Virus record (IMG/VR): IMGVR_UViG_3300042396_000723
Span: 32,185-96,184 of that record
Strand: one strand, 5' to 3'
Length of the DNA: 64,000 bases
Source of the DNA: a virus
This document shows positions 3,133-27,420 of the stretch, piece after piece. Numbering within the stretch: the first letter of the stretch is position 1; every line of letters begins with the position of its first letter. Position numbers and translations under genes: made by a program. The notes below the pieces were generated by a model. It did not search any database and was not told the DNA's origin. It was given only the letters and a program-made list of their open reading frames with translations.

Positions 3133-3725
3133 TTTTTCGGCTCCATTATTGGGATTACTTTTTTAGGGTCAATATATTTCCCGTTGAGTTTTATTCCTAA
3201 GTGCAGGTGATTTCCGGTTGATGTTCCCGTAGTACCAACTAGAGCTATGGGAGTACCTGCTTTGACCGACTGACCCTTTTGAGCTAAAACTTTCGAGGCG
3301 TGGCAGTATTTGGACAGGTAGCCACCTGAGTGATTGATCTCAACTGCATTGCCACAACCGCCCATGTCACCCGCAAAAGACACCTGACCATCGGCAACGG
3401 CTAAGATGTTTGCACCCCCCGGCGCTGCAAAATCAATCCCGTTGTGCATTTTTTGCCCTCCCGTTACAGGATGCTCTCTCATACCAAACCCAGAAGATAT
3501 TGTGTAAGGGGTTGAATGGGGATAGATAAACTTAGGGGCGTTTTTACCTAACGTAATTGTTTCTGATGTTGTTGTTGATTGGGATTGAGGAACTGAGGTA
3601 GAGGGTGATCCAAACTTAAAAATGCTAAAGCCCACAAGCAAAACAGAAACGAAACACCAGAACCAAACATCATCAAGCTGTTCCTCACAATCCCTTATCC
3701 TCTCCTCCAATTTCCGGTTCAACAT
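3129..3725 (-). CDS. M23 family (LytM-like) peptidoglycan endopeptidase
   Basis: 198 aa; HNGIDFAAP and GTTGTSTGNHLHLG motifs (HxxxD and HxH zinc ligands of M23 peptidases); N-terminal TM segment; start overlaps upstream stop. Confidence 0.8.
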   Translation of the reverse strand: MLNRKLEERIRDCEEQLDDVWFWCFVSVLLVGFSIFKFGSPSTSVPQSQSTTTSETITLGKNAPKFIYPHSTPYTISSGFGMREHPVTGGQKMHNGIDFAAPGGANILAVADGQVSFAGDMGGCGNAVEINHSGGYLSKYCHASKVLAQKGQSVKAGTPIALVGTTGTSTGNHLHLGIKLNGKYIDPKKVIPIMEPKK

Positions 3726-7786: not shown

Positions 7787-8144
7787 CGACTTTAAACTCC
7801 TTAAATAGTTGGGTTGTGTTTAGCATTAACATCTTCTGGAAAACTTCTATCTCGATAGATAAACCGTTGTTTAAACAGTGGTGATAGAGGCTTTGGAACT
7901 GATAGTAGGTATGGTGTGGGTATTTGGAACTAACAAAAATATGCAATAGGTACAAGATGTTTAATTCCGCCCAATCAACAGGTTTTCTTGTTATCCCCAA
8001 AACCCCTTTTCTGTCTGCGATTGTCTGGTGGGAAACCTTGAAAATCAACTGAATCTCTTTTGAGGAAAATGGTTCTAAAGCGTTTTCGTCTCTAAGATCT
8101 ATTGTTTTCCTAATTCCCCCTTGCCTCGATCTAAAATCGCCCAT
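7671..8144 (-). CDS. hypothetical protein
   Basis: 157 aa ORF; overlaps 7277-7786 by about 116 nt at its 3' end. Confidence 0.3.
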   Translation of the reverse strand: MGDFRSRQGGIRKTIDLRDENALEPFSSKEIQLIFKVSHQTIADRKGVLGITRKPVDWAELNILYLLHIFVSSKYPHHTYYQFQSLYHHCLNNGLSIEIEVFQKMLMLNTTQLFKEFKVDVLSRITSYRQQHSTGTYRVVSELTETPNPGGTAETAD

Positions 8145-19236: not shown

Positions 19237-19800
19237 ATGACCGCAGCAACCAAGAAGATAATTGAAAGAATCTTAAAAATTGGTGAGTGGGTAGAGATTG
19301 ACCCACATAAACACCGCCCATCTTATCTAATAAGAGGTACAGCATGGCGAGTTGAAAGTTTCAATGTATTAAAACAAACCTGTCAAGTAACTAACGAAAA
19401 AACCAGATCGGAAACCCTAGACTTTGAGGAGGTTTCCGACTCATCCCCATTCAAAAAAACAGATATTGTGCAATTAAAAAAGGATAGCCGTTACATCGGA
19501 CGGGTGATTATGTGCCGGGGGAATAAAATCAAAATTCAGTGGGCGAAAGGATTGGCAGAATCCTTAGACTCGGACAAGATAAAACTATTTATTCAGATGG
19601 TCAAAGGGGAACAAATCCCCCTCGGAAATTACGCTTTCCAGAAAGGCGATCATGTCAAAACTACAGACAAGAATTTTGGCAATGTAATCCTCACTGTAAA
19701 AGAATGCTTACCCTCTGGAATGGTGGTGTTGAGTTCATCAAACGATCCTAATTTATTGCTCCCCGGCTGTGGCTTAACAATTGTTGAGGAGGGTTTCTAA
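19237..19800 (+). CDS. hypothetical protein
   Basis: 187 aa ORF; its stop overlaps the methyltransferase start. Confidence 0.35.
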   Translation: MTAATKKIIERILKIGEWVEIDPHKHRPSYLIRGTAWRVESFNVLKQTCQVTNEKTRSETLDFEEVSDSSPFKKTDIVQLKKDSRYIGRVIMCRGNKIKIQWAKGLAESLDSDKIKLFIQMVKGEQIPLGNYAFQKGDHVKTTDKNFGNVILTVKECLPSGMVVLSSSNDPNLLLPGCGLTIVEEGF

Positions 19801-20831
19801 TGCCAACATTCGCAACATTATTCATGGGCGGAGGCGGTGCAGATTTGGGGTTAGAGGCCGCAGGGTTTAAGTCTTTATGGGGAATTGAAAGAGATCCTAA
19901 AATTGCAGAAGTAGCACGATTAAATTTCCCAAATACCAAAGTATTTAATTCTTGCGCAGGAGACATAAACCCCCGCAGTCTTCCCTATGTTGACCTGCTT
20001 TGGATGAGTCCCCCGTGCCAACAGTATTCAAACGCTAGACGGGGTAATTTAGGCGATCACAAAGACAAGGACGCGGGGCTGTACTGTAGCAGTTATATCG
20101 CAGCGATTGATCCTCGATGGGTAGTTTTAGAAAACGTCCCTGGCTACTCAAAATCACCTGTATTCGAGAAAATCCTACAATCCTTAATTCGCCACGGATA
20201 TCGCTATCATTGGTTAATACTTGACGCGGCGGATCACGGGGTTCCCCAAAACCGGAAACGGTTGATTATGTGGGCAGTTAAAAATGATCAACCTCTCCCC
20301 TATTTCCCCGAATCAAAACCCAAAAAGGGATGGTATCAAGCCATTGCTGACTTAATCCCAGAAATGCAGGACTGTGAGCTTGCAGACTGGCAGATTAAGC
20401 GACTAAATGAATTGGGTTATTTACCAGAAAAAGCCTGGATTGATATTGGGAAACAACTCATTAGACAGGCTACAGTTCGGGAGTCAAACGATCCAAGTTT
20501 TACTATTGTGAGTGGTCATGTTAACTCGCATTCTCCTATCCTGTTAATCCCCCGAGCGGGAGCTTGCATCAAGAATATTCTCCCGACTCCACAGAACAAA
20601 CCCTGCCCAACAATTCGAGCTATGAAGGATGTTTCAACCCATTGGGCGGACATCGTGCAGGGAAGCCAAATTAAACGAATTAGTCAGAAAGCGACGGCAC
20701 GGCTCCAGACTTTCCCCGACTCCTATCAATTCCCAGAATCCAAAACTTTAAGCCAACAAATAATAGGAAACGCCGTGCCTCCGTTATTGGCTAAAGAATT
20801 AGGTCTGGCAATCTTAAAATCAATTAACTAA
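19800..20831 (+). CDS. DNA (cytosine-5)-methyltransferase, orphan
   Basis: 343 aa; motif I FMGGGGADLG, catalytic motif IV SPPCQQYS (PCQ), motif VI LENVPG. No adjacent restriction endonuclease gene recognised. Confidence 0.85.
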   Translation: MPTFATLFMGGGGADLGLEAAGFKSLWGIERDPKIAEVARLNFPNTKVFNSCAGDINPRSLPYVDLLWMSPPCQQYSNARRGNLGDHKDKDAGLYCSSYIAAIDPRWVVLENVPGYSKSPVFEKILQSLIRHGYRYHWLILDAADHGVPQNRKRLIMWAVKNDQPLPYFPESKPKKGWYQAIADLIPEMQDCELADWQIKRLNELGYLPEKAWIDIGKQLIRQATVRESNDPSFTIVSGHVNSHSPILLIPRAGACIKNILPTPQNKPCPTIRAMKDVSTHWADIVQGSQIKRISQKATARLQTFPDSYQFPESKTLSQQIIGNAVPPLLAKELGLAILKSIN

Positions 20832-20833
20832 CC

Positions 20834-21277
20834 ATGAAAACATCAACTAAAGCCAAAACCAAACCCGCTAAAAAAGGATTTCAACCCGCCCCTAAAATTC
20901 ATGACAATGACTTACATATATTTTCTTGTGAGTGCCTTTGGTATGACTCAGAAACCGACGAGGAACTATTGACCGAATTGTGGACAGTCAAACTCGATAA
21001 ACGACGGTTTCGGACTGATGTCAGGCAAGCCATTATTACGGGGTTGATCTATTGCTTTCTTGAAACACCGGAAGCAACGGAACGGCATATTAACAGGGTG
21101 TTTTTTTGGAATAATAAATCCCGTGCCTATGAGCCATTAGGGGCGGTGTCTGACGCGCCGATGGACGGATCTAGTCCGGTTGATTTTGAAGCCGATCCGG
21201 TGGTGGCTTATGAGCGATTAAAAGCCCTTTGTGTCGAGATCGAAGTTATCAAGGTTGACGATTGCTTTTGCTCTTGA
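20834..21277 (+). CDS. hypothetical protein
   Basis: 147 aa ORF immediately after the methyltransferase gene. Confidence 0.35.
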   Translation: MKTSTKAKTKPAKKGFQPAPKIHDNDLHIFSCECLWYDSETDEELLTELWTVKLDKRRFRTDVRQAIITGLIYCFLETPEATERHINRVFFWNNKSRAYEPLGAVSDAPMDGSSPVDFEADPVVAYERLKALCVEIEVIKVDDCFCS

Positions 21278-21288
21278 CCTTTTAAAAA

Positions 21289-21330
21289 TACACAAATAAA
21301 CTTGTTTTTTTTGCGTTATTTGTGTATAAT
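21289..21330 (+). promoter_or_regulatory. 11-bp perfect inverted repeat overlapping a -10-like TATAAT
   Basis: TACACAAATAA (21289-21299), a 16-nt T-rich spacer, then TTATTTGTGTA (21316-21326) running into TGTGTATAAT (TATAAT at 21325-21330). Could act as an operator/promoter or as a terminator hairpin. Confidence 0.3.
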
Positions 21331-21597
21331 GAAAACAGTCAAGAATCAAGGTTTACCAATGTAGTTTGTTGGTAAATAGTTAACCAGTCTAAGCTCTTTA
21401 CTGAGCTACGTTATTGGGAAGTGTTTAAGTTCATACCTTGGGATGCGTTGCCAGTTCCAAGCTCTATAACTAAGTGATTAAACAGATGTACAGCAATTAA
21501 GTCAGCAATACTGCTGATACCCTCTTAATAAGCAGCGATTTCCCACAAATCCCCATAATCTGTTATAACTGGTGAGTAGTTATATGAGGTTGTTTTT

Positions 21598-21798
21598 ATG
21601 GTAAGACCCCACGAACACAGGCAAGAAATCAAAGCCAGACTCAAACCAGAAGATAGGGAGAAGTTGAAAGCCCTCGTCGTTGGCATGGGTTATCGTTATT
21701 GGAGGCAGGAGTCACCGGAACCCGCATGGACTGAGTTTTTGGAGGCGATCGCAACGGGCGATATAATTCTTTACAAAAAAGTCGGGGGAGGGGGTTGA
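21598..21798 (+). CDS. hypothetical small protein
   Basis: 66 aa ORF after a ~320 bp intergenic region. Confidence 0.3.
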   Translation: MVRPHEHRQEIKARLKPEDREKLKALVVGMGYRYWRQESPEPAWTEFLEAIATGDIILYKKVGGGG

Positions 21799-21859
21799 CC
21801 TTTTGGGATAAGTGGGGTACAGTTATAAATGTAGAAGGTTGAAATAAAGGAACAAGACG

Positions 21860-22090
21860 ATGACCACTCAAACCGAGCCAACTAAAATTTACTGCGACCG
21901 GAAATTTTCACTTTACGACGTAACACCCTGGACAGCCGCAAGGCTGACGAATTTCTTTAACTTGGTTGACGATGGTGAAGACGTGAAACGTGCCGTCAAT
22001 GGGTTGAAAACCTGGAAAGGTAGTCAGTCCTACCGCTTGACAATGAGTGACAAAGCTTCGATTGATTACGTTATTGAATGCTACGGTTAA
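21860..22090 (+). CDS. hypothetical small protein
   Basis: 76 aa ORF. Confidence 0.3.
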   Translation: MTTQTEPTKIYCDRKFSLYDVTPWTAARLTNFFNLVDDGEDVKRAVNGLKTWKGSQSYRLTMSDKASIDYVIECYG

Positions 22091-22158
22091 AGATTAATTA
22101 ACCGAGTAAGGTGGCTGCCCTACTCGGTTCGAAGTCAATCATTTAAGAGGAGTATACC

Positions 22159-22668
22159 ATGTCAAGCAAAAAACAGGTCAAGCAATCTTTAGAACTGACA
22201 CTAAGTTTAGCCGAATCACTAGGGCCATTAACACGGTCAGAAGCTAAAGAGTTTTTTGGATTATTGGGAGAACTCAATAAAGTTTTCAGTAAAGTAGTTG
22301 ACCCCGATGCTCACGGCCTAAAACCCGAACCCAGTCCCGAAGTAGTTAAACACCCCATTGATGCCCTACTCAAAAAAGGAAAGGTCGAACTACCAGAGGG
22401 ACGCTACAAACAACTGATTCAGATTCATGACGAGCTTTTAGTCCTCAAGATTAAATTCTTGAGTGCGAAGCAAAATCAGAATGTCACCTGGTTCCCCCTT
22501 GAGTGGAACGGGGATAAGTCAGCCGCGTTGTACTTGTCATCGTCGGAATGGTCTATAGCTCCCATCAAGTACCGAGATGACAACGATTTGACGGGCGAGT
22601 GGGAAGGATTTGATCTTACTGAGTTCATGAGTATGAACTGCCCAGAGTTTGATCAAGACGAATATTGA
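22159..22668 (+). CDS. hypothetical protein
   Basis: 169 aa ORF; AGAGGAG lies upstream of the ATG. Confidence 0.35.
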   Translation: MSSKKQVKQSLELTLSLAESLGPLTRSEAKEFFGLLGELNKVFSKVVDPDAHGLKPEPSPEVVKHPIDALLKKGKVELPEGRYKQLIQIHDELLVLKIKFLSAKQNQNVTWFPLEWNGDKSAALYLSSSEWSIAPIKYRDDNDLTGEWEGFDLTEFMSMNCPEFDQDEY

Positions 22669-22720
22669 TTTCATGGGAGGTCTTACCCTCCCTCCAAGAA
22701 GTAAAGCAGGAGAACAAATT

Positions 22721-22879
22721 ATGCTATATCGCATCACCCGAATCAAAACCGCACCCGACAGAAAAGACCGTCAAGGGTATTATTTAGAAGCCTTGAATGA
22801 GTTAGAGGCTTTGACAAGATTTCATAACCAATTCCCTGAATTTGTAGGGGAAGAATTAGAGTTAGAGGAATGGAATTAA
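22721..22879 (+). CDS. hypothetical small protein
   Basis: 52 aa from the internal ATG at 22721 (preceded by GGAGAA); the track ORF 22649-22879 overlaps the previous gene. Confidence 0.3.
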   Translation: MLYRITRIKTAPDRKDRQGYYLEALNELEALTRFHNQFPEFVGEELELEEWN

Positions 22880-22904
22880 AAGACCTCTAATTCAACTTAA
22901 AACT

Positions 22905-22934
22905 AACCAGGGGTTTATATTCCCTGGTTTTTTG
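22905..22934 (+). terminator. rho-independent terminator candidate
   Basis: Hairpin AACCAGGG / CCCTGGTT with a 9-nt loop followed by TTTTTT, placed between convergent genes (22879 plus, 22939 minus). Confidence 0.5.
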
Positions 22935-22938
22935 CTGT

Positions 22939-23535
22939 TTATCTAATCACAGGGACAGGAATAATCCCCATCAGAATGCCAGATATTTCCTGAAACATTC
23001 GCGTAGTTGTTTGCGTTGCGTCAATTATAATCCAGTTATTTTGCCTAGCCAATTCCAGATATCCGAAGCGAACCCGATCTAAAAAAAGCAAGTCTCGTTC
23101 AACCTTGTCCAGAGGTTTGTCGAGATCGCGGCGCACCGCCACCTCAACAGGACAATCGAACAAAATCACCATATCGGGATCAATTCCCCCCGTCGCCTCG
23201 TGATTTAGCTTCCTTAAATTATCTAAATTAAGCCCGTGCCCATATCCCTGATAGGCAAGTGTTGAATCCGTGTATCGATCACACAATACCAAATCAGAAT
23301 CTTCTAACAAATATCTAATCGTGGGATTGTGTTTAATCCTATCCTTCAGGATTAATTTAAGCTGCTGCTCCGGCGTTAAACACCCATTCTTTAATTCAAA
23401 ACGAACGTCATAATCGCAGGGTTCTCTTGTGATGTAGAACTTTAACTTTAACGCCGTGAAATGGTCGCAAAGTTTTCTAATTTGGGTTGTTTTCCCACTG
23501 CGGTCAATACCTTCAAAAGCAATCAATTTACTCAT
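22939..23535 (-). CDS. tmk: thymidylate kinase (dTMP kinase)
   Basis: P-loop IAFEGIDRSGKTTQ and DRYTDSTLAYQG motifs; first ATG is the complement of 23533-23535. The track ORF extends to 23550 on a TTG. Confidence 0.85.
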   Translation of the reverse strand: MSKLIAFEGIDRSGKTTQIRKLCDHFTALKLKFYITREPCDYDVRFELKNGCLTPEQQLKLILKDRIKHNPTIRYLLEDSDLVLCDRYTDSTLAYQGYGHGLNLDNLRKLNHEATGGIDPDMVILFDCPVEVAVRRDLDKPLDKVERDLLFLDRVRFGYLELARQNNWIIIDATQTTTRMFQEISGILMGIIPVPVIR

Positions 23536-23696
23536 TTCATCCTCATCCAATTTTTAATCAAATCATCTTTAATCATACCTTGCCTTATTAATTCAATTAT
23601 ATATTCTCTAGCTTCCTCCAGTGTCAATATATCCACATTACGTTTAATTATCGCAAGTTTAAATTCTTGCTCCATTGTTAGCTGTGTTGGTTCCAT
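23532..23696 (-). CDS. nblA: NblA-like phycobilisome degradation protein (not in ORF track)
   Basis: My own translation gives 54 aa MEPTQLTMEQEFKLAIIKRNVDILTLEEAREYIIELIRQGMIKDDLIKNWMRMK; its length, predicted two-helix layout, LTxEQEF start and C-terminal KNW fit the NblA pattern (L-[ST]-x-E-Q-[QE]-F ... K-H-Q-W); its stop overlaps the tmk ATG. Confidence 0.5.
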   Translation of the reverse strand: MEPTQLTMEQEFKLAIIKRNVDILTLEEAREYIIELIRQGMIKDDLIKNWMRMK

Positions 23697-23878
23697 TTCC
23701 GTTGTTATAAGAATATCAACACATAGATTATATCAAAAAATATTTTGATTTTTATACCTCTTTAATACAGAATCAAAATATTTTTTTGATTTACCTGTTG
23801 CCAATTGCTCCTGATGATGGATTTAATTTGCCAATGCGTATAGTATAGAAATATATAAATACAGCAGGAGATGGCACA

Positions 23879-24088
23879 ATGCGCGACTATATAAACAGAG
23901 TCCCCGACTATGGGGAAAAGAAAAAGCCTCACAATCTGAGTTTGACCGACACGGCGTGGCAACGGCTTGATAAATTAGCTGCGCTCTTGGGAGTGTCCAG
24001 GAGTGAGTTCGTCGAACGCCTATCCCGTGGAGCGATTGCCCCACAAGACTTACAAGCCTTTTATAAAATTTTTTTAAAAAAAGGTTGA
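23879..24088 (+). CDS. ribbon-helix-helix (CopG/Arc-like) DNA-binding protein
   Basis: 69 aa; LSLTDTAWQRLDKLAALLGVSRSEFVERL is a typical RHH strand-helix-helix signature; the upstream intergenic region carries paired near-palindromes. Confidence 0.5.
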   Translation: MRDYINRVPDYGEKKKPHNLSLTDTAWQRLDKLAALLGVSRSEFVERLSRGAIAPQDLQAFYKIFLKKG

Positions 24089-24114
24089 CAATTTCTAAAG
24101 TATGCGTATATTAT
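24085..24114 (+). promoter_or_regulatory. sigma70-like promoter candidate
   Basis: TTGACA (24085-24090), 18-nt spacer, TATTAT (24109-24114), 30 nt upstream of the ATG at 24144. Confidence 0.4.
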
Positions 24115-24143
24115 AGAATTTGTAAACGCACAGAGGTAACGCC

Positions 24144-24947
24144 ATGACAACCGCAACCACAGCAAAAACCAAAACCGCAGCAAAAACTAAAACCCCTGAG
24201 TGGAAATGGAATAATAATCTGGGGTGTGATGCCCTAAAACTCCCTACAAAGGGATGTCACGTTGACAACAGAGGAAACGTCTGGAAAGACGGCGACTCCA
24301 TTGGTAACGTCACCCCGTTGCCAAATTCAGTTAAGGTGACACCCCTAGAATGGGTTGTCACCCACGAACAAAAACAGGAAGCCGTTTCCTGCGAAAAGCT
24401 ACACGGGAGCTACAAAAAAAACGCGACTCCTGCCCGTCGTAAAGAATCCCCCGATGGGATGCGGGGAGGCAATTCTCAGTGGGGAGAAGTCTCTGGCCCT
24501 AAAGCCCATTTTGTGGCTGATGAGTACGAGGTGATTGTCACCTACACGGCAACTAAAGCCGTCAATCAATTCAGGGAAATTATTGAGGGAAAACCCAAGT
24601 TTCCTTCCCCCACTACCATTGCCTATGAAACGGGCTATGGGAAAGAAACGGAATATACCGTGACCGAGTTGGCCGTCTTAGACTTGCCTACCGAAAAAGT
24701 GGAGAAGGTCTACACAGACCAACGAAAACACCTCTATGGAGAGGCAATCAAGGTTGTCAAAGAATACCTTGACAATTTAGATAAACCCGTTGAAGGGCTG
24801 TTAAAGGTCGGTGACAGCGTGATTCACCCTGTATATGGACAGGGAACTGTCACAAAGGCTTTCGGGACTAAAAACCCCACCTACCAGTCCGTTTGCGCGG
24901 ATTTCCCCTGCGGGAACAAGATGGTAGGAAAATGTGACCTGATATGA
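24144..24947 (+). CDS. hypothetical protein
   Basis: 267 aa ORF with GAGG upstream; N-terminal TTATTAKTKTAAKTKT low-complexity tract. Confidence 0.4.
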   Translation: MTTATTAKTKTAAKTKTPEWKWNNNLGCDALKLPTKGCHVDNRGNVWKDGDSIGNVTPLPNSVKVTPLEWVVTHEQKQEAVSCEKLHGSYKKNATPARRKESPDGMRGGNSQWGEVSGPKAHFVADEYEVIVTYTATKAVNQFREIIEGKPKFPSPTTIAYETGYGKETEYTVTELAVLDLPTEKVEKVYTDQRKHLYGEAIKVVKEYLDNLDKPVEGLLKVGDSVIHPVYGQGTVTKAFGTKNPTYQSVCADFPCGNKMVGKCDLI

Positions 24948-25003
24948 CCTTTTCACTATGATTACCCCACGGAAGCCACAGCTAAAAACAGAGAGGAAAA
25001 ACA

Positions 25004-25501
25004 ATGACAACTTTCACAAAACCAGAAAACCTTTTTGATTCAGTTGATTTTCAAGGATTTGTCGTCGGAGAAGACGACGCGGTAACAACAGTATTGTATC
25101 GGGGTCAAGTCCCCGATTTTAAGCGGAATAAAAAACAGGTCGTAAAGTTTGACTTCGACCTTCACTGCCTAACGGCAAAACACTGGTTTCTAGCTATAGA
25201 GCTATCTACTTCTGACCTTTTGTTTAAGGAGGTAGAAAGTTGTCCTGTTGAACTTCCCAATGAGTTCAAGGATTCAGTTGTCCTGCACCCTGTAAACGGG
25301 AAAGTGGGCGTTTGGGTTGCGCCGATGTCACCCACTGATGTTTCGGGTTGGCAAAAAGCTATGGAAACTACAGCGACAGAGGTAAAAGCCTCTGGTAGTG
25401 TGAAGTTTCGAGGGCTTCACAACCTGTTCAACAGGCTATCCCGCGTTACCCCCAAAACAGGGGTTGTTGGGGGTGCTAAATTCCCGACATGGAGAGACTA
25501 A
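25004..25501 (+). CDS. hypothetical protein
   Basis: 165 aa ORF with GAGAGGAAAAACA before the ATG; lies inside a segment bracketed by direct repeats. Confidence 0.35.
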   Translation: MTTFTKPENLFDSVDFQGFVVGEDDAVTTVLYRGQVPDFKRNKKQVVKFDFDLHCLTAKHWFLAIELSTSDLLFKEVESCPVELPNEFKDSVVLHPVNGKVGVWVAPMSPTDVSGWQKAMETTATEVKASGSVKFRGLHNLFNRLSRVTPKTGVVGGAKFPTWRD

Positions 25502-25506
25502 AAGTA

Positions 25507-25553
25507 GCGATCTCAGGTTAGCTCCTAGCACGGTTCGATTCCGTGCGGTCGCA
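25507..25553 (+). other. tRNA-like 3' fragment (T-arm plus acceptor strand); possible att core or tRNA remnant
   Basis: CACGG-TTCGATT-CCGTG (25529-25545) is a canonical T-stem/loop (GGTTCGATTCC), followed by a 7-nt acceptor-like strand and discriminator A; the element is too short (47 nt) for D and anticodon arms. Confidence 0.4.
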
Positions 25554-25590
25554 TTCCCGAAAGGGATTATTAACTACATAGGCTAAAGCA

Positions 25591-25872
25591 ATGAAGAAAC
25601 ATCAAATCAATGAGCAACTTAGTAAGTTATTGAAACTTACTAACTGCTCTAACCTAGAGGTAACGGTTGACAACAACACCAGGGATTGTATGACCGTCTG
25701 GAAGCTATGGGGTAAAGGTGGGCAAATTGCCCAAGCCGAAGCACGGTTTGGATCGGAATATTCTGATCAACCCGATGGTTTTGCCTTCTATTTAGAAGGC
25801 TACAACTGGACAGATTACTGTCCTACAGTTCAAGATTGTGCCAGCCAACACAAGGAGCGCGCTCTTGTCTAA
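25591..25872 (+). CDS. hypothetical protein
   Basis: 93 aa ORF downstream of the tRNA-like fragment. Confidence 0.3.
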   Translation: MKKHQINEQLSKLLKLTNCSNLEVTVDNNTRDCMTVWKLWGKGGQIAQAEARFGSEYSDQPDGFAFYLEGYNWTDYCPTVQDCASQHKERALV

Positions 25873-25873
25873 T

Positions 25874-26038
25874 ATGACCCATTATTTCGGCTACGAAGTC
25901 GAGATTAAAGATAAATCAGGGAAGTACGCCTGGTTTATCTACCAAGACGGGGTAATCATCTTTTCAAGTGGCTACGATTACCCCACAGAAGCCACAGCCT
26001 ATGACTGCGCTTGCAGTCGCATTGACACATTATTCTAA
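25874..26038 (+). CDS. hypothetical small protein; a decayed partial copy lies at 24945-24982
   Basis: 54 aa from the ATG at 25874; its 5' and 3' segments (ATGACC... and ...GATTACCCCACAGAAGCCACAGC) recur in collapsed form at 24945-24982. Confidence 0.3.
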   Translation: MTHYFGYEVEIKDKSGKYAWFIYQDGVIIFSSGYDYPTEATAYDCACSRIDTLF

Positions 26039-26049
26039 GGAAAAATCAA

Positions 26050-26430
26050 ATGGAAATCATTAACGCTACACCCCATCAAATCGTTATCTGTAGCAACCAA
26101 GGGGTTGTCCAAGATGCAAAGACTAAGCAATTCACAGCTTCGGCTGTTGAGATCCTCCACACCCTGCCACCATCGGGAATCATCCCCCGCGTGGCGATGG
26201 GGAATACCGAATCCGAACCCATTTTAGGTATTCCAGTCCAAAGCGTTCAATATGGCGAGATTGAGGGACTCCCCCCTGCGTCTCCCGATGTTTATTATGT
26301 AGTGTCGGGACTGGTAGCAGCAGCCGCCGTTAAAGTGAACAGGGCTGATTGCCTGGCTCCGGGTGCGCTAGTCCGCAATTCTGCCAACCCATCAGAGGTG
26401 TTAGGCTGTCTTTTTTTGCAAAAGCCCTGA
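26050..26430 (+). CDS. hypothetical protein
   Basis: 126 aa ORF, last intact gene of the plus block. Confidence 0.35.
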   Translation: MEIINATPHQIVICSNQGVVQDAKTKQFTASAVEILHTLPPSGIIPRVAMGNTESEPILGIPVQSVQYGEIEGLPPASPDVYYVVSGLVAAAAVKVNRADCLAPGALVRNSANPSEVLGCLFLQKP

Positions 26431-26432
26431 TT

Positions 26433-26537
26433 GGCGACGGTTGCCCCCGGTGTGGTAGTCATAGGCTGGTTAGATATGGTTACACCGAACACGGTCGCCG
26501 CCGAATGAAATGCAAGGATTGTAATAAATTATTTTAA
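26433..26537 (+). pseudogene. transposase N-terminal zinc-ribbon remnant (IS1/IS1595-like)
   Basis: In-frame GDGCPRCGSHRLVRYGYTEHGRRRMKCKDCNKLF then a stop; the C-x2-C...C-x2-C block matches transposase N-terminal zinc ribbons; no canonical start codon and no catalytic domain follow. Confidence 0.45.
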
Positions 26538-26542
26538 AATCA

Positions 26543-26573
26543 ACCCTCTAAATATTTAGAGGGTTCTTTTTTT
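26543..26573. terminator. bidirectional rho-independent terminator candidate
   Basis: Perfect 10-bp stem ACCCTCTAAA / TTTAGAGGGT with a 2-nt loop, T-run downstream on plus and A/T-rich on minus; sits between convergent gene blocks. Confidence 0.55.
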
Positions 26574-26575
26574 GA

Positions 26576-27265
26576 TTATCTGATAATCGTTAACGTCGTA
26601 GTCTCTGGCAACTTCACCCACGGATAAACGATCCGCCAAACATCGTGACTATAAATATTTTTCGTCATGTACCGGGCGTCGGGAACTTGTTTAATCTCTA
26701 TCCCCATCTTAATACTCATCGCTTTGAGAGGTCGCCAACTGAAGTTAGACTCATGAACTTTATTGAACTTGGCAACCCTGATGATTGACGAATAATCAAA
26801 AAGTTCATCCAAAGCCTCGGACAGTTGATTGTTTTCTTCCTCAAGCAGTGCTTTCTCGGCCTCTAACTTTTCTACCTCTAACGCCAATCGTCCAGCCTCT
26901 AGCAAAGCCTGAGCATAGGTTTGTGGTAACGCAAGCGGGGTCTGAACGTGGTTATTCTTAGCAAGGGAGAAAGCCTCAACTAACCGTTCTTTGCAATCCA
27001 AAACCTGATCACTGTTTCGGGAAAACGTCATCAAAAGTGTTGCTTGTGCTTCATTCAAGAAACAGTAAGAGACTTCGTAAGCCCCACCCTGCGGGCGTCT
27101 CACCACGTCCGTTTTAAACGCGACTGGTGTTTTTCGTTCTAATCGGTCTAAATACTTTGTGATTGTTTGCAGTAAGTTCTTATGTTGAATCCCCAGTTCA
27201 TCAGCAATCAATCGGGAATCGACAACTAAGGTGTCATTCTGTGTGGTAATGTCAAGAATAGCCAT
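26576..27265 (-). CDS. phage regulatory protein, Rha-family N-domain with antirepressor-type C-domain
   Basis: N-terminus LVVDSRLIADELGIQHKNLLQTITKY resembles the Rha family; the C-terminal ~110 aa are about 60% identical to the C-terminus of ORF 49458-50186. Confidence 0.55.
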   Translation of the reverse strand: MAILDITTQNDTLVVDSRLIADELGIQHKNLLQTITKYLDRLERKTPVAFKTDVVRRPQGGAYEVSYCFLNEAQATLLMTFSRNSDQVLDCKERLVEAFSLAKNNHVQTPLALPQTYAQALLEAGRLALEVEKLEAEKALLEEENNQLSEALDELFDYSSIIRVAKFNKVHESNFSWRPLKAMSIKMGIEIKQVPDARYMTKNIYSHDVWRIVYPWVKLPETTTLTIIR

Positions 27266-27420
27266 TGTTTACTCCGTATAAGTAAGTTGTGGTTAGACCC
27301 GTTCAAAAGCCAAAAACTTTTGGCGGGTTGCCTATTTATATTATAATACAAACCCAATATCTTCACCAATAAAAATAACCCAACAATTAATAAATCATCG
27401 GGTGTGTTGTCCAATTTTAA

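What the first reader, a model, noticed from the sequence alone, without database searches (positions are those of the whole stretch)
23532..23696. Unannotated 54-codon NblA-like ORF translationally coupled to thymidylate kinase
A minus-strand ORF absent from the six-frame track encodes MEPTQLTMEQEFKLAIIKRNVDILTLEEAREYIIELIRQGMIKDDLIKNWMRMK. Its length, helical propensity and LTxEQEF ... KNW pattern resemble NblA, the phycobilisome degradation adaptor, which is known to be carried by some cyanophages as an auxiliary metabolic gene. Its stop overlaps the tmk start, and it lies in an AT-rich island opposite in orientation to the surrounding block, as expected for a moron.
Basis: partly seen in the sequence, partly recalled or inferred. 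Interest (0 to 1): 0.7.

Follow-up and report, generated by a model that had tools for sequence, protein, structure and literature searches.

The report
Cyanophage NblA gene, already known

The parts
23532..23696 (-). nblA coding sequence (54 codons plus stop): viral NblA, the phycobilisome proteolysis adaptor
22939..23535 (-). tmk coding sequence (thymidylate kinase, 198 aa), starting at the ATG inside the ATGA overlap
   Evidence: Pfam PF02223 120.7 bits. Orthologue of PaV-LD ORF021L. P-loop GIDRSGKTT is visible in the translation.
23532..23535 (-). ATGA overlap: nblA stop and tmk start share 4 nt. A purine-rich GAGGA lies 4 nt upstream of the tmk ATG, inside nblA.
   Evidence: Sequence. The ATGA junction is present in 42 of 42 related loci that extend far enough.
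23727..23735 (-). Candidate extended -10 promoter element TGATATAAT, starting 39 nt upstream of the nblA ATG
   Evidence: Read from the sequence. Invariant in the 7-sequence alignment. Exact TGnTATAAT in 37 of the 40 loci with upstream sequence; the other three (L032, L033, L045) have GGGTATAAT. Function is inferred, not shown.
23735..23786 (.). Perfect 16-bp inverted repeat (arms 23735-23750 and 23771-23786, 20 nt apart). The proximal arm abuts the -10 element and covers the -35/spacer position, so it looks like an operator.
   Evidence: the repeat finder I1. Present in all 'window-type' upstream regions; a different hairpin takes its place in the second upstream type. Function is inferred.
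22905..22929 (.). GC-rich hairpin with T runs on both strands, between the convergent tmk (-) and ORF 22649..22879 (+): probable bidirectional terminator ending the nblA-tmk transcript
   Evidence: Terminator scan reports it on the + strand. The minus-strand reading shows the same stem followed by AGTTTTAAG.
23879..24088 (+). Divergent neighbour: 69-aa ribbon-helix-helix protein (PaV-LD ORF023R orthologue). A possible but unproven regulator of the shared intergenic region.
   Evidence: Pfam RHH_1 21.6 bits, cut-off 20.5. It is the neighbour in most window-type loci, but it is absent within 1.2 kb in L012, L022, L024, L026 and L027, which keep the inverted repeat.

Best explanation
The ORF is the nblA gene of a PaV-LD-like cyanophage that infects Planktothrix. 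By analogy with cellular NblA and the PaV-LD orthologue, the 54-residue protein folds into a helix-loop-helix and probably dimerises. It would bind phycocyanin in the host phycobilisome and recruit the ClpC-ClpP protease, so the antenna is degraded during infection. That releases amino acids and nitrogen and cuts light absorption. The gene is the first cistron of a two-gene transcript with its own extended -10 promoter and its own terminator. The second cistron, thymidylate kinase, starts inside the nblA stop codon (ATGA) and is probably translated by ribosomes that have just finished nblA. Antenna breakdown and dTTP supply for phage DNA synthesis would then be switched on together. Shown here: the ORF, the overlap, family membership, the fold, purifying selection, conservation of the pair, and orthology to PaV-LD ORF022L. 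Shown by others for the orthologue: a phycocyanin decline on expression. Inferred: dimerisation, ClpC recruitment, promoter use, translational coupling, and any control through the palindrome.
Against: NCBIfam's strict equivalog model for cellular NblA gives only 22.8 bits against a cut-off of 100, so this is a diverged viral branch and not a cellular-type orthologue. Foldseek against the PDB returned nothing (submitted, result), which I attribute to the short all-helical query. The clade carries D45 where 82 of 91 family representatives have N. No experiment was done on this exact sequence, which differs from PaV-LD NblA at 3 of 54 residues. Promoter, coupling and ClpC binding rest on sequence reading and on knowledge of the family.
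Confidence: 0.93

Rival explanations
1. It is an NblA homologue with a shifted role. It would still recruit the Clp protease, but to targets other than or beyond phycocyanin, or it would bind phycobilisomes and uncouple them without degradation.
For: The PaV-LD clade carries a clade-specific D45 at a nearly invariant N column and fails the NCBIfam equivalog cut-off. A marine viral NblA was reported to lead to cleavage of many non-antenna proteins as well (PMC12695635).
Against: The 94.4%-identical PaV-LD protein, which also has D45, is reported to lower phycocyanin. All other family-conserved residues and the fold are retained.
Confidence: 0.05
2. The ORF is a chance open frame or a decaying remnant, and only tmk is functional.
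For: Short ORFs are plentiful here: 65 ORFs of at least 30 aa in 7 kb. The upstream Shine-Dalgarno-like sequence is weak (GGAA directly before the ATG).
Against: Pfam E = 6.6e-13. The frame is intact in all 43 related loci at 72-100% amino-acid identity. Synonymous sites are saturated while dN is 0.13-0.14. The structure model is confident.
Confidence: 0.01
3. The real gene is the 95-codon plus-strand ORF 23461..23748, antisense to nblA.
For: That frame has no stop codon across the nblA segment in the window or in the four distinct relatives checked: PaV-LD, L004, L005 and L008.
Against: It has no Pfam match at E up to 10. Its translation is low-complexity and rich in I, L and S, as expected for the mirror frame of an AT-rich helical protein. 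The substitution pattern fits selection on the minus-strand frame.
Confidence: 0.01

Closest known systems
Planktothrix phage PaV-LD ORF022L (YP_004957295.1), 'phycobilisome degradation protein nblA', with ORF021L thymidylate kinase
   Same: Same length (54 aa) and 94.4% identical. It has the same 4-nt overlap with tmk, the same divergent ORF023R/ORF024R neighbours, the same upstream inverted repeat and -10 element, and the same collinear phage backbone.
   Different: Three amino-acid differences: I37V, Q39L and G40D. The last ~25 residues of Tmk differ. The outer flanks differ too. The window has no counterpart of the PaV-LD integrase and PAPS-reductase genes on one side, or of the 7-kb toxin-antitoxin/ABC/kinase-phosphatase block on the other.
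Cellular NblA of freshwater cyanobacteria (Nostoc PCC 7120 1OJH, Thermosynechococcus vulcanus 2QDO/2Q8V, Synechococcus elongatus 3CS5)
   Same: The size, the helix-loop-helix fold and the conserved L-T/S-x-E-Q-x-F and M-x-K-D motifs are shared. Pfam membership is shared.
   Different: Only 16-30% identity in the structural alignments. It is below the NCBIfam equivalog cut-off and has D45 instead of N. It is carried by a phage under a phage promoter. Established knowledge of cyanobacterial nblA says the cellular genes respond to nutrient stress through NtcA and sRNAs; that was not tested here.
NblA of other cyanophages (Microcystis phages Ma-LMM01 and MaMV-DC; marine T7-like cyanophages)
   Same: A viral auxiliary gene of the same family, reported to reduce host phycobiliproteins during infection (PMC11477984; PMC12695635).
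   Different: These are different phage lineages and separate acquisitions. None appeared in tblastn against 50,697 phage records at E up to 0.01; only PaV-LD did. The nblA-tmk overlap is a feature of the PaV-LD-like group. In the marine T7-like phages the dominant nblA type is associated with the exonuclease gene.

Membership tests
NblA (Pfam PF04485) | Profile match above the curated gathering score | tested here: met
   49.3 bits against a cut-off of 25, E = 6.6e-13, protein residues 5-52 on profile positions 1-48 of 50.
NblA (Pfam PF04485) | Small protein of about 50-65 residues that folds as a helix-loop-helix | tested here: met
NblA (Pfam PF04485) | Conserved N-terminal motif L-T/S-x-E-Q-x-F (the 'LTMEQ' motif) | tested here: met
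   L6-T7-M8-E9-Q10-E11-F12 are present. Columns L6, E9, Q10 and F12 are conserved in at least 85 of 91 family representatives. The motif is named in PMC5083919.
NblA (Pfam PF04485) | Conserved C-terminal residues implicated in phycobiliprotein binding (Nostoc L51 and K53; the residue numbers are from my memory of Bienert et al. 2006) | tested here: inconclusive
   Extending the ungapped register of the 1ojh alignment puts these residues on window W50 and R52. Those family columns are L 47/W 20 and K 58/R 18 of 91. The match is therefore conservative, but the register at the C-terminus is not certain.
NblA (Pfam PF04485) | Homodimer that binds phycocyanin and ClpC and causes bleaching | not testable with these tools
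   A phycocyanin decline is reported only for the 94.4%-identical PaV-LD orthologue (Gao et al. 2012, via PMC11477984). Only single-chain structure prediction is offered here.
NCBIfam NF045916 (cellular NblA equivalog) | Score above the equivalog cut-off of 100 bits | tested here: not met
   22.8 bits, E = 7.6e-5. I do not file the protein under this narrow cellular equivalog. It belongs to the broader Pfam family and to the viral group PHROG 23930 (108.2 bits).
PaV-LD-like phage nblA-tmk module | nblA immediately upstream of tmk with an ATGA overlap, on a PaV-LD-like genome | tested here: met
   The junction is identical in PaV-LD and present in 42/42 related loci. The window is collinear with PaV-LD.
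Phage 'moron' (independently transcribed accessory insert) | Own promoter and terminator, deviant base composition, and variable presence among related phages | tested here: inconclusive
   A candidate promoter and a terminator are present, and the orientation is opposite to the flanks. Only nblA is AT-rich. The pair is present in every relative retrieved, but those relatives were found by searching for nblA, so absence in other PaV-LD-like phages could not be assessed.

The most novel reading that the evidence does not exclude
In PaV-LD-like phages nblA and tmk would form an obligatory, translationally coupled two-gene unit. It would be driven by its own promoter and gated by a palindromic operator, possibly bound by the divergent ribbon-helix-helix protein. 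Phycobilisome breakdown would then be tied, in amount and in timing, to dTTP synthesis. As far as the papers I could search show, this link between an antenna-degradation gene and nucleotide metabolism has not been described.
Probability: 0.25. Interest if true: 0.3.

Novelty: already known. Interest (0 to 1): 0.15.

Why it matters
Viral NblA lets a cyanophage dismantle the host's light-harvesting antenna. That is relevant to the control of Planktothrix blooms and to estimates of how much photosynthesis viruses suppress (PMC12695635). This copy adds no new principle. It confirms that the gene is kept, under purifying selection and always fused to tmk, across many environmental PaV-LD-like phages. 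It also shows that a reader working from sequence alone could recognise a 54-codon auxiliary gene that falls below common ORF-length cut-offs.

Tried and rejected

I looked for close relatives in one genome per species of bacteria and archaea. Only two short, evidently mis-binned phage contigs turned up, in MAGs labelled Acetobacteraceae and Terrimicrobiaceae, and none in a cyanobacterial genome. I therefore found no sign that the window is a prophage, and I could not identify the host donor gene.

I tried to name the nearest non-PaV-LD relatives (53-58% identity). They carry no useful names, and the two I inspected sit in phage-like contexts.

I tested whether the 16-bp inverted repeat always travels with the divergent RHH gene. 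It does not: five loci keep the repeat but have no RHH gene within 1.2 kb. The idea that the RHH protein is the repressor therefore stays a guess.

The antisense 95-codon ORF was rejected. The window has no tRNA genes. The original Gao et al. 2012 paper is not held in the library, so its results are cited second-hand.

Full report
**Observation.** The minus strand carries an ATG-to-TGA ORF at 23532..23696. It translates to MEPTQLTMEQEFKLAIIKRNVDILTLEEAREYIIELIRQGMIKDDLIKNWMRMK, exactly as reported. The last bases read ATGAAATGAGT, so the stop TGA and the ATG of the next ORF share the four bases ATGA. That next ORF matches Pfam Thymidylate_kin at 120.7 bits. Both genes lie on the minus strand, and the ORFs on either side are on the plus strand. 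A 54-codon ORF means little in itself, since 65 ORFs of at least 30 aa overlap this 7-kb stretch. The case rests on homology and conservation.

**Identity.**
- The protein matches Pfam NblA (PF04485) at 49.3 bits against a gathering score of 25, with E = 6.6e-13, over almost the whole profile.
- It matches the viral family PHROG 23930 at 108 bits; PHROGs labels that family 'unknown function'.
- It falls well below NCBIfam's strict cellular NblA equivalog model, with 22.8 bits against a cut-off of 100.
- phmmer against the PDB finds the four solved NblA proteins, 2qdo, 2q8v, 3cs5 and 1ojh. No other chain reaches E below 0.5.
- A full HMMER scan of 1.84 billion representatives returned at least 150 small proteins at E up to 1e-3.
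- In an alignment of 91 of these, the window protein has the family's conserved residues L6, E9, Q10, F12, L14, M41 and K43. It has D45 where 82 of 91 have N. That D is shared by the whole PaV-LD-like clade and is absent from the other 85 representatives aligned.
- AlphaFold2 on this alignment gives pLDDT 94.4, with helices 8-22 and 26-53.

**What the window is.** Megablast and blastn show a genome collinear with Planktothrix phage PaV-LD, circularly permuted relative to the deposited record. About 47 of 64 kb align at 67-97% identity. tblastn of the ORF against 50,697 phage records hits only PaV-LD, at 94.4% identity. The hit is ORF022L, annotated 'phycobilisome degradation protein nblA'. It overlaps ORF021L, thymidylate kinase, by the same four bases.

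Papers in the library cite Gao et al. 2012 for two results. nblA expression during PaV-LD infection accompanies a phycocyanin decline. The gene also lowers the phycocyanin peak when expressed in Synechocystis 6803 (PMC11477984). PaV-LD-like nblA in Lake Erie metagenome contigs has been tabulated as well (PMC10343443). Viral NblA more generally has been studied in depth (PMC12695635). The gene is therefore already known. The original 2012 paper is not held here.

**Conservation and context.**
- Relatives at 72-100% amino-acid identity occur on 34 IMG/VR viral contigs, on six metagenome contigs and on two short contigs binned into non-cyanobacterial MAGs.
- One of these, IMGVR_UViG_3300042882_001391, is 99.8% identical to window 20500-26500.
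- In all 42 loci that extend past the stop codon, tmk follows with the ATGA overlap.
- Against the diverged clade, 24-28 synonymous differences fall on about 29 synonymous sites, while dN is 0.13-0.14. This indicates purifying selection on the minus-strand frame.
- The plus-strand mirror ORF (23461..23748) stays open in the relatives checked but has no family match.
- The flanks are strongly mosaic. Homology between the window and different relatives starts or stops exactly at the nblA start codon, inside tmk, or at 23841, and the neighbouring genes differ from locus to locus.
- Relative to PaV-LD, the window has no counterpart of the integrase and PAPS-reductase genes on one side, or of a 7-kb block of toxin-antitoxin, ABC and kinase/phosphatase genes on the other.

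**Expression signals (read from sequence, not shown).** An extended -10 element, TGATATAAT, starts 39 nt upstream of the nblA ATG (23735-23727). It is invariant in a seven-sequence alignment. An exact TGnTATAAT is found in 37 of the 40 loci with enough upstream sequence, and the other three read GGGTATAAT.

Directly upstream lies a perfect 16-bp inverted repeat, with arms at 23735-23750 and 23771-23786. Its proximal arm covers the -35/spacer position, where repressors commonly bind. A second group of relatives has a different 9-bp hairpin followed by a T run at the same place, and a longer leader.

The divergent neighbour at 23879..24088 passes Pfam RHH_1 narrowly, at 21.6 bits against 20.5, and would be a natural candidate regulator. 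However, five loci keep the repeat without that gene nearby, so I rate this as a guess.

A GC-rich hairpin at 22905-22929, with T runs on both strands, lies between tmk and the convergent upstream gene. nblA (30.9% GC) and the intergenic region (27.5%) are AT-rich, but tmk (41.7%) is not.

**Mechanism.** The best-supported reading is that this is a working viral NblA. It would be a small helical adaptor, probably dimeric, that binds phycocyanin and hands the phycobilisome to ClpC-ClpP. That frees amino acids and reduces light capture during infection. It would be co-transcribed, and probably translationally coupled, with thymidylate kinase. The fold, family membership, selection and orthology are shown here. 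The phycocyanin decline is reported for the orthologue. Dimerisation, ClpC binding, promoter use and coupling are inferred from established knowledge of the NblA family and from the sequence.

**Verdict.** Two corrections apply: the AT-rich stretch covers only nblA and its promoter region, and the gene pair is a constant module and not a sporadic insert. Novelty is 'already known'. The small additions are the strict conservation of the nblA-tmk overlap within a mosaic region, the palindrome next to the promoter, and the clade-specific D45.

Noticed in passing
window 21263-21553, 21783-22947, 24941-27327: Relative to PaV-LD, the window has no counterpart of the integrase (ORF018R) and PAPS reductase (ORF020R) genes, or of the 7-kb block ORF025-037 (HicAB-type toxin-antitoxin, GNAT, ABC transporter, Ser/Thr phosphatase and kinase). 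Different short genes fill these places. A phage without that integrase may differ in lifestyle from PaV-LD.
   Followed up: partly
window 23834-23850 and 24102-24118 (+): A 17-mer, ATGCGTATAKTATAGAA, occurs twice, each time just upstream of a plus-strand gene (the RHH ORF and the 267-aa ORF at 24144). The second copy overlaps a near-consensus TTGACA-16-TATATT promoter. It could be a shared promoter or operator motif. Five of 100 shuffles gave two or more matches at up to 3 mismatches.
   Followed up: partly
window ~23697-23700 and 23841: Homology breakpoints between the window and several related contigs fall exactly at the nblA start codon or just beyond the promoter region. This suggests recurrent recombination at the module boundaries.
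   Followed up: partly
L004-L006, L008 and others, about 90 nt upstream of nblA: A second type of nblA upstream region has a 9-bp hairpin (TTTTGTATC...GATACAAAA) plus a T run directly before the -10 element. It also has a conserved leader of about 75-90 nt that the window lacks. It may be a regulatory leader.
   Followed up: no
window 24149-24184 (+): An 18-nt tandem repeat encodes a TAKTKTAAKTKT stretch at the N-terminus of the 267-aa ORF 24144..24947, the orthologue of PaV-LD ORF024R.
   Followed up: no
L048 (Logan SRR31200915 contig) 3340-3507 and 7826-7999: A contig with a phage-like context carries two nblA genes. Between them lie a group II intron-type reverse transcriptase with an HNH domain and an N6/N4 DNA methyltransferase.
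   Followed up: no
L010, L011 (JBIPLY010000603.1, JBIPMC010000376.1): Short PaV-LD-like contigs carrying nblA-tmk are binned into MAGs labelled Acetobacteraceae and Terrimicrobiaceae. This is almost certainly a binning error in the public records.
   Followed up: no
PHROG 23930: The viral protein family that this NblA matches at E = 3.4e-31 is labelled 'unknown function' in PHROGs v4, although its members are NblA.
   Followed up: no
window 26576-27265 (-) and 19800-20831 (+): A Rha-family phage regulatory protein (Pfam Phage_pRha, 48.4 bits) lies on the minus strand. A 343-aa ORF on the plus strand is at the position of PaV-LD's DNA methyltransferase ORF010R.
   Followed up: no
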